Positions 11,730-29,630 of a stretch of 64,000 bases of DNA are shown one piece after another. The stretch comes from an uncultured Spirochaetota bacterium. Its GTDB lineage: Bacteria > Spirochaetota > Brevinematia > Brevinematales > JAOACQ01. Location: the NCBI GenBank assembly GCA_963768055.1, contig CAVYGN010000001.1, positions 53,590 to 117,589 on the forward strand, written 5' to 3'. Positions within the stretch are counted from its first letter, which is position 1. Each line of letters begins with the position of its first letter. Made by a program: the position numbers and the translations under genes. Under the pieces are notes generated by a model that did not search any database, had not been told where the DNA came from, and saw nothing but the letters and a program-made list of their open reading frames with translations.

Positions 11730-12029
11730 CTATTTTTTTGATGAACTTTTCATTACAGGACCAAGATAATCCTTGACAAAAAATCCGAGTTCTTCCGATT
11801 TCATCAGGGAAAAACAAAGAACTTTCCCATTCATGGTCCAGCTGATCAAAGCCAATTTATCGCCGGCTTTAATATCCGCCTTATCTCTCACTTCTTTAGG
11901 CAGGACCATCTGTCCCCTCTCGTCAACGGTGATGAGAGATTCGACCCGGCACTTGCTGTCATTGCAGCATGAAGGCTCATTAATACAATCGGATCCGCAT
12001 ACTTTTGATTCTTCACTTTTTTTATCCAT
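11730..12029 (-). CDS. hgcC: HgcAB-associated protein HgcC-like (AbrB/MazE/SpoVT fold, Cys-rich N-terminus)
   Basis: C.VESLITVDERGQMVLPKEVRDKA.IKAGDKLALISW motif recalled for the HgcAB-associated family; hgcAB is in the same window. Confidence 0.75.
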   Translation of the reverse strand: MDKKSEESKVCGSDCINEPSCCNDSKCRVESLITVDERGQMVLPKEVRDKADIKAGDKLALISWTMNGKVLCFSLMKSEELGFFVKDYLGPVMKSSSKK

Positions 12030-24213: not shown

Positions 24214-24531
24214 TCAGCAGCATCCGCCGGATTCCGGCTCTTTACAGGACTGCGGCCCCCCGCACCCGCATTCGGGAGATTTATTCCCGAAAATGCCGCT
24301 GATTACCGCGGCGGCACATCCGACACCGGAATTGACTTCGATTGCACCGGCCGGGCAATTTATCCGGCAGGCCCCGCATTCCATGCATGCGTCTCTTATA
24401 ACTATCAATGCTTTTTTATCAAGCAGCTTGAAAACATTATGCGGGCAAACTTCTATACAATTGCCGCATCCGGTGCATTTATCGATGTCCAATGCCAGGC
24501 TCCCGCCGTTTTTAATATATTTCCAGATCAC
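24214..24531 (-). CDS. hgcB: mercury methylation ferredoxin HgcB
   Basis: Two CX2CX2CX3C motifs including CMECGAC; C-terminal CC; directly after hgcA. Confidence 0.95.
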   Translation of the reverse strand: MIWKYIKNGGSLALDIDKCTGCGNCIEVCPHNVFKLLDKKALIVIRDACMECGACRINCPAGAIEVNSGVGCAAAVISGIFGNKSPECGCGGPQSCKEPESGGCC

Positions 24532-24533
24532 TG

Positions 24534-25562
24534 TTACCCTCCGATATTCAGAATTTTTAAAATATTTAATACGATCCCTCCCGCAAAGGCCGCGGCCATA
24601 ACGGGCAGCGATCTTTTAACCTCGAGAGTCGCGCCGGTTTGATTTGTAAATGTCGTCGATCCCGTAAAATTCATGGCTATAAACGATATTACGGGAATCG
24701 TTATAAGGGCCAGTAATAGCGACCCGTAAATTGAAAGCCTGCATATCCATGCCGCCGGTAAGCAATATATAATACCGAGAACGCCGCCCTTTAAAGAAAA
24801 GGCCCTGAAAGGCAGGTATGGGAGCAGCAGGGGAAATACAAAAACTCCTGAAAGAACGGAAAAAATGTAAGCGGTAAGAAGCGGCGTAAGTCTTTGTATA
24901 TAAGTTTTGTCTAAAGGCAGGCTGAAAACAGAGCCGAGAATAATGAGAACAGAAACAAGCCACATGCTTTGAACCAGTTCCACCGGAGCCACTATAAGCC
25001 TGTCCTTCCAGTTGAAGCTTACCTCGCTCATGCGGGCGTCTTTTTTCATCCCTTTTGCCATGAATCGTTTTATATCGCCTGCACGGACAGGGCCGTATGT
25101 AATTTCAAATTTTGTCATCATGCGGGCCTTATAAGAAGACACTCCTACAGCGCCAAGCTGCGGCAGGATGATTTTCCTGTGCCTTACGATCCTTTCGAGC
25201 CCCGATTCTAATATTCTTTTTACAAGCTCCATTGTTCCGAAAGTACCCTTTCCGGCTGCGCACCAGACGTTGATGCCCCTGGTATCGAGAACGATCAGCC
25301 AGGCGTCCAAGCCTTCAAGGTTTTTTCTAACAATGTCGAAAGAAAGTTTATAGTTGGCCGTGACAAATACAGGTGAGTCCTGATCCGGTTTCCCGATCCC
25401 GTAAAGCCCCGGAGAAACCCTGTAATTTCCTCTCCCGATATCGAGCCTGACCATAAGGCCGCCAATCCAGTCTGTAAAGGTGAGCTTAGTCGATATTAAA
25501 GGAATTTGCCGGTTGGAAATGCCGGCATAACCACTTATATAAGGTTCCCTTTTATCCATCAT
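24534..25562 (-). CDS. hgcA: mercury methylation corrinoid protein HgcA
   Basis: Cap-helix NVWCAAGKG, VTANYKLSFD, C-terminal TM domain ending FTGSTTFT; start may be the second Met (25559). Confidence 0.97.
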   Translation of the reverse strand: MMDKREPYISGYAGISNRQIPLISTKLTFTDWIGGLMVRLDIGRGNYRVSPGLYGIGKPDQDSPVFVTANYKLSFDIVRKNLEGLDAWLIVLDTRGINVWCAAGKGTFGTMELVKRILESGLERIVRHRKIILPQLGAVGVSSYKARMMTKFEITYGPVRAGDIKRFMAKGMKKDARMSEVSFNWKDRLIVAPVELVQSMWLVSVLIILGSVFSLPLDKTYIQRLTPLLTAYIFSVLSGVFVFPLLLPYLPFRAFSLKGGVLGIIYCLPAAWICRLSIYGSLLLALITIPVISFIAMNFTGSTTFTNQTGATLEVKRSLPVMAAAFAGGIVLNILKILNIGG

Positions 25563-26007
25563 GGACCTCGCTTGTTGTTTTTTTTCTCAGGGCGTCGGCG
25601 AAAAGTTTGAAGGATTCAACCACGCCGGCATGTTTATAATCGGGTATGTATTTAAAAATATCCAGGTATATTTTGTTCCATAACGAATTTATCTCACAGG
25701 TAATTCTATAGCCGGTTTCCGTCAGTTTAAGGTTAGTATATCTCCTGTCTTTAGGATTTTCAGACCTTTCAATAAAACCCGATTTGAACAATTCGTCGGC
25801 TGTCCTGCTCAAAGTGCTTTTATCAAGGTCGAGGGCTAGGGAAAGCTGTTTTATTGTAAGTTCTCCCTGCGATTCTATCTCCATTAGCATGTGACATTGA
25901 GGCACGGTGATCCCGCAGCAGCAATCGCCGTTTGCAAACTGCCTTTCTATCGCCCTTTCTATTACCCTGATCGATTTTCTGAAAATTCCTAACTTTAATT
26001 CGTCCAT
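25552..26007 (-). CDS. MarR family regulator with DCCC motif
   Basis: ITVPQCHML, LDLDKSTLSR, ENPKDRR; overlaps the hgcA start. Confidence 0.9.
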   Translation of the reverse strand: MDELKLGIFRKSIRVIERAIERQFANGDCCCGITVPQCHMLMEIESQGELTIKQLSLALDLDKSTLSRTADELFKSGFIERSENPKDRRYTNLKLTETGYRITCEINSLWNKIYLDIFKYIPDYKHAGVVESFKLFADALRKKTTSEVHDG

Positions 26008-26041
26008 ATTTTATCCGGTTTATTGAGTGTGTATAACAACT

Positions 26042-26070
26042 ATTGTAACACACAACTACGATAATGTCAA
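26042..26070 (-). promoter_or_regulatory. sigma70 promoter of marR-hgcAB
   Basis: TTGACA-17 bp-TACAAT; -35 overlaps the GH1 stop; imperfect IR (GTGTGT..ACAA-N3-TTGT..ACACAC) overlaps the -10. Confidence 0.7.
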
Positions 26071-27410
26071 TAGCCGTTGTTATCAATAACCGATTTAAGC
26101 CACAAGCCGCTTTTCTTGACTGTCCTCTTTTGCGTTTTAAAATCCACATGAACAAGCCCGAATCTCTGTGAATACCCGGCGTTCCATTCAAAGTTATCCA
26201 TGAAGGACCATACAAAATAACCGGCCAGGTTTACTCCGGCTTGTATCGCCCGGTGGGCCTGGAATATATGTTCCCGGATATAATTAATCCTGTTATCGTC
26301 ATTAACTTTCCCCTGCGGGTTTAAAACATCCTTAAAGGCCGCTCCGTTCTCGGTTATCATCATTTTTATGCCATTGTATTCCCTGTGAAGATAAAGCAAT
26401 AGATCGTAAAGGCCTGCGGGATATATTTCCAATCCCGAGCCGGTCGTTTCCTTTCCTGTTTTTGTAAAGGAAGTTTGAAGATAGGGTTTACCGGGATCAT
26501 GCCTTGCCGAATTGCTTGTATAATAATTTACACCTAAAAAATCAATCGGGGTATTTATTATATCCATGTCGTCTTTTTTTATTTCAGGAAAATCTGCTGT
26601 CTCAGAAAACCAATTGACCAGCTCGGGCGGATATTGCCCTTTCATTACAGGGTCGAGGAACCAGCCGTTATAAAAATCGTTGTAACGCCTCGCTGCGGCA
26701 ATGTCCCTCTCATCCATTGACGCGGGGTAGACCGGATTCAGGTTAAGCTTTATCCCGATTTCGCCCTTCATTCCCATTTCACGGAAAGCGCGGACGGCCC
26801 TGCCATGCGAGAGCAGGATATTATGAGAAACGGATAGCGCTATTGAAAGATCCTTGATCCCAGGCGGATGCCCGCCGTACAAGTTGCCCGCAAAGGCGCT
26901 CACCCAGGGCTCGTTGAATGTCGCCCAGATTGGGACCATATCTCCAAGTTCCCTGAATACATAGCGGGAGTATTCTTCGAAATAATTAATAGTTTCCCCG
27001 GCGGCCCAGCCTCCGATATCCTGGAGTTTCTGGGGCAGGTCCCAGTGATACAGGGTAGCCGCAGGTTTAATTCCGTTTTCAAGAAGCAGACCGGCAAGTC
27101 TCCTGTAAAAATCGATTCCCTTTTTATTAGGTTTTCCTTTGCCTTCCGGAAATATCCTCGGCCAGGAAACGGAAAAAAAGTAAGATTTGAATCCGAGGTC
27201 TTTAAGAAGTTTTACATCCTTCTCATAAAGATGATAATGGTCGCAGGCGACATCGCCGTTATCGTTGTTGAATATCTTTCCAGGCCGCAGGTGAGTGAAG
27301 CGGTCCCAGATCGATTCCCCCTTCCCGTCTTCCAGGTAAGCGCCCTCGATCTGATATGAGGCGCTCGACGCGCCCCAGATGAAGCCATGCGGAAAAACTA
27401 ACCCCGGCAT
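26067..27410 (-). CDS. GH1 beta-glucosidase
   Basis: WGASSASYQIEG, TFNEP (acid/base), ITENG (nucleophile), WSFMDNFEW. Confidence 0.95.
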   Translation of the reverse strand: MPGLVFPHGFIWGASSASYQIEGAYLEDGKGESIWDRFTHLRPGKIFNNDNGDVACDHYHLYEKDVKLLKDLGFKSYFFSVSWPRIFPEGKGKPNKKGIDFYRRLAGLLLENGIKPAATLYHWDLPQKLQDIGGWAAGETINYFEEYSRYVFRELGDMVPIWATFNEPWVSAFAGNLYGGHPPGIKDLSIALSVSHNILLSHGRAVRAFREMGMKGEIGIKLNLNPVYPASMDERDIAAARRYNDFYNGWFLDPVMKGQYPPELVNWFSETADFPEIKKDDMDIINTPIDFLGVNYYTSNSARHDPGKPYLQTSFTKTGKETTGSGLEIYPAGLYDLLLYLHREYNGIKMMITENGAAFKDVLNPQGKVNDDNRINYIREHIFQAHRAIQAGVNLAGYFVWSFMDNFEWNAGYSQRFGLVHVDFKTQKRTVKKSGLWLKSVIDNNGY

Positions 27411-27532
27411 TTTTCACCCGGGCAGCCGCACGGTGCGGGCGGCCTGCAATCCGTGTTTTCCGGGCCGCAGCATTCGCAATCGATGCCTTTTTGCTTTGAA
27501 ACGCCTTCCATTTCCTTTTTGAACTCAAACAT
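27398..27532 (-). CDS. 44-aa Cys-rich mini-protein (not in ORF track)
   Basis: AGGAGG, 7 nt, ATG; MFEFKKEMEGVSKQKGIDCECCGPENTDCRPPAPCGCPGEKCRG*; 7 Cys; stop overlaps the GH1 start; lies directly behind an ECF-type promoter copy. Confidence 0.7.
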   Translation of the reverse strand: MFEFKKEMEGVSKQKGIDCECCGPENTDCRPPAPCGCPGEKCRG

Positions 27533-27562
27533 AATTGAGCCTCCTGAATTATTTTTCATAAT

Positions 27563-29075: not shown

Positions 29076-29630
29076 TTAAGAAATGTTACAGCAGCAGCAT
29101 GTGACGGGCCGGATGTCGATGATTGTACCAAAGCGGTCGAATTCGAAATGGCAGCAATTCATGAGGCTGTCCCTGACTAATTTGCGGCCCCTCTGGACGC
29201 GCGACTTGGCACATGATGATGAAATACCAAGTTTTTCCGCTACTTCAACGATTGATAAACCCTGAAATTCGAATAAGAGAAGAGCCTGCGCGTACTTTTC
29301 CGGCAGGGTTTCGATCATATTTCTCAGGCCCGAAGCGATTTCATCCTCCGGGCTTTCCTCTTCTCTTTCATAGCCGATTTCGATATCATCTATATCCTTG
29401 ATCCCTGTCCTGCGTTTCCTGTAATAGTCTATTATCGTATTCCGCGCTATCCGGTAGATCCATCCTACCAGCTTCGACTGTTCCTCGAGTTTATCGATAT
29501 TAAGGTGGATCTTTAAAAAAACATCCTGAAGGATATCGTCGATATCGGAGCGGTTGGATATCCTATGGTATATAAAAGCCCTTATCCTTTCTCCGAAATC
29601 TTCCCAGATTTGATTGAAATCATGCGGCAT
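29076..29630 (-). CDS. sigZ: ECF RNA polymerase sigma factor, SigZ-like, with Cys-rich C-terminus
   Basis: DDILQDVFLKIH, WIYRIARNTIIDYYRK, AKSRVQRGRK; tail CCHFEFDRFG..TCCCC. Confidence 0.85.
   Translation of the reverse strand: MPHDFNQIWEDFGERIRAFIYHRISNRSDIDDILQDVFLKIHLNIDKLEEQSKLVGWIYRIARNTIIDYYRKRRTGIKDIDDIEIGYEREEESPEDEIASGLRNMIETLPEKYAQALLLFEFQGLSIVEVAEKLGISSSCAKSRVQRGRKLVRDSLMNCCHFEFDRFGTIIDIRPVTCCCCNIS

What the first reader, a model, noticed from the sequence alone, without database searches (positions are those of the whole stretch)
24214..26070. Complete hgcAB mercury-methylation operon led by a Cys-rich MarR rather than ArsR
Seen: canonical HgcA and HgcB motifs; a MarR with a DCCC motif overlaps the hgcA start; a consensus promoter carries an overlapping imperfect IR. 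Known: hgcAB confers Hg methylation, and ArsR-like control is described in Pseudodesulfovibrio mercurii ND132. Inference: this organism is a predicted methylator with a different, thiol- or metal-sensing MarR switch.
Basis: partly seen in the sequence, partly recalled or inferred. Interest (0 to 1): 0.62.

Follow-up and report, generated by a model that had tools for sequence, protein, structure and literature searches.

The report
Cysteine-rich MarR repressor controlling hgcAB
An uncultured spirochaete relative carries intact mercury-methylation genes (hgcAB) behind a cysteine-rich MarR regulator, which belongs to a widespread, uncharacterised family found almost only in front of hgcAB, so identifying what it senses could show what switches mercury methylation on.

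Summary
On the minus strand, marR (26007..25552), hgcA (25562..24534) and hgcB (24531..24214) form one tightly packed unit. It sits behind a near-consensus promoter, TTGACA-17-TACAAT with a TG extension. HgcA and HgcB both score above NCBI's equivalog cut-offs and carry the diagnostic motifs.

The main new result is that this MarR is not a one-off. It belongs to a MarR subfamily of at least 349 clusters at 50% identity, spread across phyla. The core motif CCG(V/I)(T/S)xxQCH is almost invariant.

- **Association with hgcA:** in 401 Spirochaetota genomes, 30 carry the family, each as a single copy. In 28 of them it lies directly upstream of hgcA, and none of the genomes without an HgcA hit has it.
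- **Outside the phylum:** four of four members checked also precede hgcAB.
- **Co-evolution:** MarR and HgcA distances are correlated (Mantel r = 0.66).
- **Operator:** a palindrome TTGT-N5-ACAA, usually two copies 16 bp apart over the -10 hexamer and start site, is conserved family-wide. In the window's genome the tandem form occurs only here.

The window's clade is a derived variant. It has CCC but has lost the α5 cysteine and the C-terminal CC tail.

The most likely mechanism is an autorepressor released through its cysteine/histidine cluster. The signal is untested. A soft metal or metalloid is favoured; thiol oxidation or an Fe-S cluster are rivals. The held literature mentions MarR next to hgcA in one sentence only.

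The parts
26065..26070 (-). -35 hexamer TTGACA of the marR-hgcAB promoter. It overlaps the TGA stop (26069..26067) of the upstream GH1 gene.
   Evidence: invariant in 5 related loci
26042..26047 (-). -10 hexamer TACAAT, with an extended TGn at 26050..26048 and a 17-nt spacer
26042..26057 (-). Predicted MarR operator site 1, AGTTGTGTGTTACAAT (core TTGT-N5-ACAA). It covers the promoter spacer and the -10 hexamer.
   Evidence: the core is exact in 18 of 26 family promoters, against 0.12 expected
26026..26041 (-). Predicted MarR operator site 2, AGTTGTTATACACACT (core TTGT-N5-ACAC, one mismatch). It lies 16 bp downstream of site 1, over the predicted transcription start.
   Evidence: the 16-bp tandem arrangement recurs across the family and is unique in the own genome
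25552..26007 (-). marR, 151 aa, a member of the hgcAB-linked MarR subfamily. Sensor-candidate cluster: C29 C30 C31 in the α1-α2 loop and C38 H39 in α2. Recognition helix: residues 63-75.
24534..25562 (-). hgcA, 342 aa, corrinoid protein. Cap helix NVWCAAGK at residues 98-105; transmembrane domain at 189-341.
24214..24531 (-). hgcB, 105 aa, 2x[4Fe-4S] ferredoxin with Cys72 and C-terminal Cys104-Cys105; GTG start

Best explanation
marR-hgcA-hgcB is a single autoregulated operon in an uncultured Brevinematales (Spirochaetota) bacterium.

A strong sigma-70-type promoter drives all three genes. They are probably translationally coupled, because marR and hgcA overlap and hgcB starts 2 nt after the hgcA stop.

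The MarR dimer binds two tandem pseudo-palindromes (family consensus GTTGTATwATACAAC) centred 16 bp apart. The right arm of the first site is the -10 hexamer and the second site covers the start site, so bound MarR would exclude RNA polymerase. It could also block read-through from the GH1 gene, which has no terminator.

Repression would be relieved when the conserved Cys/His cluster (C29-C31 in the α1-α2 loop, C38-H39 at the start of α2) is occupied or modified, shifting the winged-helix lobes. The favoured signal is a thiophilic metal or metalloid such as Hg(II), As(III) or Cd(II).

The regulator belongs to a dedicated subfamily that travels with hgcAB as a cassette across phyla.

Shown here: gene identities, synteny, exclusivity, co-evolution and the conserved operator. 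Inferred: DNA binding, the direction of control and the nature of the signal.
For: HgcA and HgcB exceed the equivalog cut-offs and carry their motifs.

Promoter: 11/12 match, conserved in relatives.

Cassette conservation: marR-hgcA-hgcB is conserved with different flanking genes in 5 close loci.

Spirochaetota survey: a MarR homologue lies co-oriented directly upstream of hgcA in 30 of 78 loci. In 401 genomes the subfamily is found in 30, single-copy, with 28 adjacent to hgcA and none in genomes lacking an HgcA hit. Four of four members outside the phylum sample that were checked (MAGs named Syntrophus sp., Deltaproteobacteria and Candidatus Wallbacteria, plus an unnamed 5.2-Mb contig) also precede hgcAB.

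Co-evolution: regulator type is clustered on the HgcA tree (9 changes against 26.7 in shuffles, 0 of 500). MarR and HgcA distances give Mantel r = 0.66, 0 of 2000 permutations as high.

Operator: TTGT-N5-ACAA is exact in 18 of 26 promoters, against 0.12 expected from shuffles and 18 of 1560 other windows in the same loci. With one mismatch allowed it is in 25 of 26, typically as two sites 16 bp apart. It is also seen in the Syntrophus and Wallbacteria loci. The tandem form is unique in the own genome.

Cysteine cluster: C30 124/125, C31 123/125, C38 122/125, H39 124/125. Among 145 world-wide cluster representatives the counts are 140, 120, 139 and 133.

Structure: the AlphaFold model (pLDDT 89.8) is a canonical MarR fold with the cluster in the α1-α2 loop and at the start of α2.

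Convergence: the ArsR-like regulators at other hgcA loci also carry 2-3 CxC motifs, and most have a C-terminal CC or CxC tail. The ArsR2 regulator of P. mercurii ND132 is experimentally linked to hgcAB control and has a 4-Cys site (bioRxiv 10.1101/2022.10.17.512643).
Against: The ligand is unknown. The window's clade lacks two cysteine features that most of the 125 database homologues carry: the α5 Cys (111 of 125, though only 60 of the 145 world-wide representatives) and the C-terminal CC tail (about 100 of 125). Its sensing chemistry may therefore differ from the family's, or be reduced.

Operator site 2 in the window has a weak right arm (ACAC).

Conservation of the right arm of site 1 is confounded with conservation of the -10 hexamer.

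In known MarR-family metal sensors (AdcR, ZitR) the metal promotes DNA binding, so the sign of regulation could be the opposite of what is proposed.

About 40% of Spirochaetota hgcA loci have no adjacent regulator at all.
Confidence: 0.6

Rival explanations
1. The MarR is a thiol-oxidation (redox, peroxide or electrophile) switch of the OhrR/MgrA/SarZ type. Oxidation or disulfide formation among C29-C31 and C38 releases the repressor. Expression of the oxygen-sensitive corrinoid/Fe-S HgcAB pair would then be tied to redox state rather than to a metal.
For: Cysteine-based oxidation sensing is the best-documented use of conserved Cys in the MarR family (established knowledge: OhrR, MgrA, SarZ, E. 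coli MarR Cys80). These proteins appear among the sequence and structural neighbours. Vicinal cysteines in a flexible loop (pLDDT about 68 over residues 21-30) could form disulfides.
Against: Known one- and two-Cys MarR oxidation sensors do not need 3-6 cysteines plus a histidine. The broader family adds a C-terminal CC tail, and the unrelated ArsR-like hgcAB regulators show the same CxC and CC signatures. That pattern is more typical of soft-metal ligand sets such as ArsR, CadC and the MerA/HgcB tails. The hosts are anaerobes.
Confidence: 0.2
2. The cysteines and histidine hold a structural Zn(II) or an Fe-S cluster. The physiological effector is then either a small organic molecule bound in the usual MarR pocket (for example a C1, corrinoid or methyl-cycle metabolite) or the cluster's redox or assembly state.
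For: Most MarR proteins respond to organic ligands (established knowledge). Four thiolate or imidazole ligands (C30, C31, C38, H39 or C110) fit Zn or Fe-S coordination. In ND132, hgcAB expression also responded to S-adenosylhomocysteine-related treatments (bioRxiv 10.1101/2022.10.17.512643).
Against: The ligand set is plastic across the family. C110 is present in only 60 of 145 representatives, the C-terminal CC tail is optional, and in the window's clade C29 is gained while C110 is lost. That is unusual for a strictly structural site. I know of no precedent for Fe-S clusters in the MarR family (own knowledge, not checked).
Confidence: 0.15
3. The MarR is merely a neighbour. It regulates only itself or something else, and hgcAB is expressed constitutively or from another promoter.
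For: hgcAB has often been reported as constitutively and weakly expressed (general knowledge of the field). About 40% of Spirochaetota hgcA loci have no adjacent regulator.
Against: marR overlaps hgcA by 11 nt, and no promoter-like site of comparable quality lies before hgcA. In 28 of 30 genomes the family member is adjacent to hgcA and co-oriented. The two proteins co-evolve, and the cassette keeps its order while the flanking genes change.
Confidence: 0.04

Closest known systems
ArsR2, the ArsR/SmtB-family regulator (DND132_1054) upstream of hgcAB in Pseudodesulfovibrio mercurii ND132
   Same: A small winged-helix regulator encoded upstream of hgcAB, co-oriented and co-transcribed with it, and cysteine-rich (4-Cys site). 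It is the only experimentally supported hgcAB regulator (bioRxiv 10.1101/2022.10.17.512643). ArsR2-like proteins occupy the same position at 15 of 78 Spirochaetota hgcA loci and share the CxC and C-terminal CC signatures.
   Different: It belongs to a different family. The window protein matches PF01047/PF12802 (MarR) and does not match PF01022 at E <= 0.01. It has six helices with an α1/α5/α6 dimer interface, and its cysteines are in the α1-α2 loop and α2 rather than in α3 and the β-strand region. The two regulator types sit on different branches of the HgcA tree.
AdcR and ZitR, Zn(II)-sensing MarR-family repressors of Streptococcus and Lactococcus
   Same: They share the MarR fold and appear among the Foldseek matches (5jls, 5jlu, 6fi9). 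NCBIfam AdcR_fam_Zn_TF gives a weak match (27 bits, far below the cut-off of 175). Their metal site is built from the α1-α2 loop, α2 and α5, the same neighbourhood as C30/C31, C38/H39 and the family's C110. This is my own knowledge of AdcR, not tested by superposition.
   Different: Their ligands are His and Glu, not Cys. In them Zn acts as a co-repressor. Their regulon is zinc uptake. They have no link to hgcAB and no C-terminal CC tail.
OhrR, MgrA, SarZ and E. coli MarR (Cys80): thiol-oxidation-responsive MarR proteins
   Same: MarR-family repressors that bind palindromic operators overlapping their own promoters and are inactivated through cysteine chemistry. They appear among the PDB sequence and fold neighbours.
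   Different: They use one or two reactive cysteines at other positions. They lack the CCGxTxxQCH motif and control peroxide or drug resistance genes.
[quoted passage not shown] 2023, PMC10349881), and the unnamed 'putative transcriptional regulator' upstream of hgcAB in 112 genomes (McDaniel et al. 2020, PMC7438021)
   Same: The same gene position relative to hgcAB. These are plausibly the same subfamily, since members occur in Desulfobacterota-type MAGs.
   Different: The papers give only a COG assignment or no family name. They describe no motif, no operator and no exclusivity. I could not fetch those proteins, so membership of the subfamily is untested.

Membership tests
HgcA (NCBIfam NF040863, mercury methylation corrinoid protein) | Profile score above the curated equivalog cut-off, and higher than the score for the non-methylating HgcAB-like fusion model | tested here: met
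   387.2 bits against a cut-off of 275. The HgcAB_like fusion model scores 199.7 against 285. There is a single copy in the genome.
HgcA (NCBIfam NF040863, mercury methylation corrinoid protein) | Cap-helix motif N(V/I)WCA(A/G)GK containing the Co-ligating Cys | tested here: met
   NVWCAAGK at residues 98-105
HgcA (NCBIfam NF040863, mercury methylation corrinoid protein) | C-terminal transmembrane domain of about five helices | tested here: met
   Hydrophobic segments at 189-220, 225-252, 260-302 (two helices) and 319-341, by a Kyte-Doolittle scan
HgcA (NCBIfam NF040863, mercury methylation corrinoid protein) | Hg(II) methylation activity | not testable with these tools
   Uncultured organism; no assay is possible
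HgcB (NCBIfam NF040864, mercury methylation ferredoxin) | Score above the cut-off, two CX2CX2CX3CP motifs, the conserved extra Cys and a C-terminal CC pair, encoded next to hgcA | tested here: met
   113.3 bits against 99. Motifs at residues 19 and 49, Cys72, Cys104-Cys105. The start codon is 2 nt after the hgcA stop.
MarR family (Pfam PF01047) | Profile match above the gathering score, and a winged-helix fold with α1/α5/α6 dimerisation helices | tested here: met
   58.4 bits against 24.6. AlphaFold model with pLDDT 89.8 and topology α1-α2-β-α3-α4-wing-α5-α6. Foldseek TM-scores of 0.6-0.77 to many MarR structures.
MarR family (Pfam PF01047) | Binds a (pseudo)palindromic operator overlapping its own promoter | tested here: inconclusive
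   A conserved palindrome TTGT-N5-ACAA overlaps the -10 hexamer and start site across the family. Binding itself was not tested.
ArsR/SmtB family (Pfam PF01022), the known hgcAB regulator type | Match to the HTH_5 profile | tested here: not met
   PF01022 is not among the Pfam hits at E <= 0.01. The genuine ArsR2-like proteins at other hgcA loci form a separate sequence cluster.
hgcAB-linked CC-MarR subfamily (defined here) | Core motif C30-C31-G-[VI]-[TS]-x-x-Q-C38-H39 | tested here: met
   The window has C30, C31, G32, I33, T34, Q37, C38 and H39. Conservation is 122-124 of 125 and 120-140 of 145.
hgcAB-linked CC-MarR subfamily (defined here) | Encoded directly upstream of hgcA-hgcB and co-oriented with it | tested here: met
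   11-nt overlap with hgcA. The same position is seen in 28 of 30 family-bearing Spirochaetota genomes and in 4 of 4 loci outside the phylum.
hgcAB-linked CC-MarR subfamily (defined here) | Additional α5 Cys (position 110) and a C-terminal CC tail, present in most of the 125 database homologues | tested here: not met
   The window and its four close relatives have W110, no C-terminal cysteines and an extra C29. They form a derived variant clade. These two features are frequent but not universal: C110 is in 60 of 145 representatives.

The most novel reading that the evidence does not exclude
The CC-MarR subfamily is the dedicated sensor of the physiological signal for HgcAB. Its Cys/His cluster would bind a specific soft metal or metalloid (Hg(II), As(III) or another), and binding would induce hgcAB. 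Identifying the ligand would then reveal the native function and environmental trigger of mercury methylation in a large share of methylators. The window's CCC clade, which lacks the α5 Cys and the CC tail, would be a natural minimal sensor. The independent recruitment of Cys-rich MarR, ArsR and AbrB-type regulators to the same position would show strong selection to couple hgcAB to thiophilic-metal status.
Probability: 0.35. Interest if true: 0.8.

Novelty: new variant of a known kind. Interest (0 to 1): 0.6.

Why it matters
What controls hgcAB expression, and what HgcAB is really for, are long-standing open questions in mercury biogeochemistry. Gene abundance predicts methylmercury production poorly. 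The only regulator studied so far is the ArsR-like protein of one Desulfovibrionaceae strain.

This analysis shows that a different regulator family is tied almost exclusively to hgcAB, moves with it between phyla, and has a recognisable operator and an invariant Cys/His cluster. In the Spirochaetota sample it is twice as common at hgcA as the ArsR type.

That provides a defined protein, a defined DNA site and defined residues for direct tests: gel-shift assays, metal-binding assays and reporter fusions in a laboratory host. It also provides a sequence marker that could improve interpretation of metagenomic and metatranscriptomic hgcA surveys.

The locus itself is an ordinary intact hgcAB operon in a phylum already known to carry these genes.

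Tried and rejected
- **Locus searches that failed:** The search for related loci with the broad MarR alignments A1 and A5 failed because no stretch was conserved enough. The narrower A4 found only two other named MAGs and two weak Ktedonobacteraceae hits. This first suggested a tiny family; the profile search and the phylum survey overturned that.
- **First reading of the inverted repeat:** I initially considered the GTGTGT...ACACAC pair and the 11-nt pair found by the repeat finder (I1) spanning -35 and -10. Neither is conserved in relatives, so I replaced them with the TTGT-N5-ACAA tandem sites.
- **Other regulon members:** the tandem operator occurs only at this locus in the own genome.
- **Closeness to a characterised MarR:** the best PDB sequence hits are structural-genomics MarRs at E about 1e-17, and Foldseek gives generic MarR matches. 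No specific relationship to AdcR, ZitR or OhrR emerged.
- **The 44-53-aa Cys-rich ORF upstream:** a homologue exists only in the nearest relative, L008/L009, so it is not a general part of hgc cassettes.
- **Named methylators and prior literature:** I could not test whether the Geobacter daltonii and Dethiobacter alkaliphilus MarRs, or McDaniel's 'putative regulator', belong to this subfamily. Literature searches for 'hgcR' and 'hgcC' found nothing relevant.
Full report
**1. What is in the window.**

Three minus-strand ORFs are packed head to tail.

- marR, 26007..25552, 151 aa. Pfam places it in MarR (PF01047, 58.4 bits against 24.6). There is no ArsR/HTH_5 hit at E <= 0.01.
- hgcA, 25562..24534, 342 aa. 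NCBIfam's HgcA equivalog scores 387 bits against a cut-off of 275. The model for the non-methylating HgcAB-like fusion stays below its cut-off (200 against 285).
- hgcB, 24531..24214, 105 aa, with a GTG start. The HgcB equivalog scores 113 bits against 99.

HgcA has the cap-helix NVWCAAGK at residues 98-105 and a hydrophobic C-terminal domain with about five membrane segments. HgcB has two CX2CX2CX3CP motifs, Cys72 and a C-terminal Cys104-Cys105 pair.

marR overlaps hgcA by 11 nt, with a GAGG Shine-Dalgarno sequence inside marR. hgcB starts 2 nt after the hgcA stop, behind GGAGGG. The genome (3.69 Mb, 2 contigs) has a single hgcA.

**2. The promoter.**

The promoter is TTGACA (26070..26065), a 17-nt spacer, then TACAAT (26047..26042) with an upstream TGn, an 11/12 match. 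Sites this good occur about once per 15 kb of strand in this genome.

The stop codon of the upstream GH1 beta-glucosidase gene lies inside the -35 hexamer, and there is no terminator. Read-through from upstream is therefore possible.

**3. Close relatives.**

A word-based search found only eight relatives of the MarR. The five close ones (64-75% identity) all carry CCCG(I/V)T..(Q/E)CHMLM.

In every contig that could be read, the gene order is marR-hgcA-(optional 126-aa membrane ORF)-hgcB, while the flanking genes differ completely. The cassette is therefore the conserved unit.

Named records place these genomes in Brevinematales/Spirochaetota. One relative (L008/L009) has an in-frame deletion of MarR residues 5-43, which removes α1 and the Cys cluster.

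**4. The regulator belongs to a large hgcAB-dedicated subfamily.**

I located hgcA in a sample of 401 Spirochaetota genomes. It exceeds the cut-off in 77 of them. I then read 78 loci.

| Regulator directly upstream of hgcA | Loci (of 78) |
|---|---|
| MarR homologue, co-oriented (28 strong, 2 divergent) | 30 |
| ArsR2-like, co-oriented | 15 |
| None within about 1.1 kb | 31 |
| Too short to tell | 2 |

The converse search used a profile of the subfamily over the same 401 genomes. It found the subfamily in 30 genomes, always as a single copy. In 28 of them it is adjacent to hgcA, and no genome without an HgcA hit has it (compared).

A profile search of the protein collection gave 644 members at E <= 1e-10, with names from Spirochaetes, Syntrophus, Deltaproteobacteria and Wallbacteria. 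All four non-spirochaete or unnamed members whose contigs I read precede hgcA-hgcB.

An exhaustive HMM search of 1.84 billion cluster representatives found 349 clusters (50% identity) at E <= 1e-30.

**5. Co-evolution and transfer as a cassette.**

On an HgcA tree of 84 sequences, regulator type is strongly clustered: MarR needs 9 changes against 26.7 in shuffles (0 of 500 as low). The window's HgcA sits in a 99%-supported clade with the four other CCC-MarR loci.

Genomes of the window's own genus carry three different cassette types at different places on the tree. This indicates horizontal movement of hgcAB together with its regulator.

Pairwise MarR and HgcA distances are correlated, with Mantel r = 0.66 and 0 of 2000 permutations as high.

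**6. The candidate sensor.**

| Position | 125 database homologues | 145 world-wide representatives |
|---|---|---|
| C30 | 124 | 140 |
| C31 | 123 | 120 |
| G32 | 122 | 126 |
| Q37 | 120 | 137 |
| C38 | 122 | 139 |
| H39 | 124 | 133 |
| Cys at position 110 (α5) | 111 | 60 |
| C-terminal CC tail | about 100 | not aligned |

The window's clade is a derived variant. It has W110, no C-terminal cysteines, and an extra C29 that gives the CCC triple.

An AlphaFold model (pLDDT 89.8) shows a canonical MarR fold. C29-C31 are in the α1-α2 loop (residues 26-34), C38-H39 are at the start of α2, the recognition helix is at 63-75, the wing is at 79-95 and position 110 is in α5.

Fold and sequence searches of the PDB return only generic MarR proteins. 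No characterised close relative emerged.

To my knowledge (not tested by superposition), the α1-α2 loop, α2 and α5 neighbourhood is where AdcR and ZitR bind Zn.

The ArsR2-like regulators at other hgcA loci also carry 2-3 CxC motifs, and most end in CC or CxC. The ND132 ArsR2 has a 4-Cys site (bioRxiv 10.1101/2022.10.17.512643). This is a convergent signature, and it favours soft-metal or metalloid binding over simple oxidation sensing.

**7. The operator.**

Aligning promoters of close relatives showed invariant AGTTG...TACAAT.GTTG...ACA blocks, including in the normally unconstrained spacer.

Across the whole subfamily the upstream regions share the palindrome GTTGTATwATACAAC (core TTGT-N5-ACAA). 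It is usually present twice, 16 bp apart, with the right arm of the first copy serving as the -10 hexamer.

- The core is exact in 18 of 26 regions. Shuffles predict 0.12, and it occurs in 18 of 1560 other windows of the same loci.
- With one mismatch allowed, it is present in 25 of 26 regions.
- It is also present in the Syntrophus and Wallbacteria loci.

In the window the sites are 26057..26042 (AGTTGTGTGTTACAAT) and 26041..26026 (AGTTGTTATACACACT). The tandem form occurs nowhere else in the genome.

This arrangement is typical of an autorepressor that excludes RNA polymerase.

**8. Mechanism proposed.**

The proposal is an autoregulated marR-hgcAB operon. MarR dimers sit on the two sites and are released through the Cys/His cluster.

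- Shown: gene identities, cassette conservation, exclusivity, co-evolution, and an operator conserved and fused to the promoter.
- Inferred: DNA binding, repression rather than activation, and the signal.

I favour a thiophilic metal or metalloid. Thiol oxidation, or a structural Zn or Fe-S site with another effector, are live rivals.

**9. Comparison with the literature.**

hgcAB in Spirochaetes is well known (PMC7438021). ArsR-like control is established for ND132.

In the held library, MarR next to hgcA is mentioned in one sentence of one paper (PMC10349881). McDaniel et al. reported an unnamed 'putative regulator' upstream of hgcAB in 112 genomes, which may be this subfamily. I could not test that.

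I found no description of the motif, the operator or the exclusivity.

**10. Verdict.**

The locus is an ordinary intact hgcAB operon. The value lies in recognising a dedicated, testable regulator family.

Noticed in passing
window 11730-12029 (-): A 99-aa AbrB/SpoVT-like protein with a Cys-rich N-terminus (CGSDCINEPSCCNDSKC). Homologues lie directly upstream of hgcA in other Spirochaetota loci (L061, 103 nt upstream, E 1e-28; L051). This is therefore a third Cys-rich regulator type found at hgcA, and here it is detached by about 12 kb.
   Followed up: partly
window 27398-27559 (-); L008 3751-4029: A small Cys-rich ORF (MFEFKKEMEG...CECCGP...CGCPGEKC). A homologue lies directly upstream of the marR promoter in the nearest relative, L008/L009. 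In the window a GH1 gene is inserted between them. It was not found at any other hgc locus, nor elsewhere in the own genome.
   Followed up: partly
window 29076-29630 (-): An ECF-type sigma factor (184 aa) ending in a Cys-rich tail (CCHFEF...VTCCCCNIS). It heads the same-strand run sigma-GH5-Cys peptide-GH1-marR-hgcAB. The same order without GH1 is seen in L008.
   Followed up: no
L008 4124-4450 and L009 4089-4415: The MarR of a close relative has an in-frame deletion of residues 5-43 (helix α1 plus the whole Cys cluster), while the promoter, operator and hgcAB are intact. This is a natural variant without the sensor or the dimerisation helix.
   Followed up: partly
L008 5481-5861; L001 7478-7861: A 126-aa ORF predicted to span the membrane about four times is inserted between hgcA and hgcB in some relatives. 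It has no Pfam hit and is absent from the window.
   Followed up: no
L098 2677-3658 (genome G228): This is one of the two subfamily members in the phylum sample that are not next to hgcA. It has a single Cys (SCGIGLAQCH) and is followed by a C_GCAxxG_C_C-like gene. A PF09719 gene also follows hgcB in the Wallbacteria locus L096.
   Followed up: partly
L041-L093, ArsR-like ORFs upstream of hgcA: The ArsR2-like regulators at 15 Spirochaetota hgcA loci carry 2-3 CxC motifs, and most end in CC or CxC. This mirrors the C-terminal CC tail of most MarR-type regulators and of HgcB itself.
   Followed up: partly
L001 2186-3237 and 3618-5912; L008 6169-9396; L010 136-1183: Arsenic- and thiol-related genes flank several relatives' cassettes: ArsR-like genes, a methyltransferase, LMW phosphatase/ArsC, an SBF/Acr3-like gene, glutamate-cysteine ligase with an ATP-grasp gene, and thioredoxins. 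None of these is adjacent in the window.
   Followed up: no
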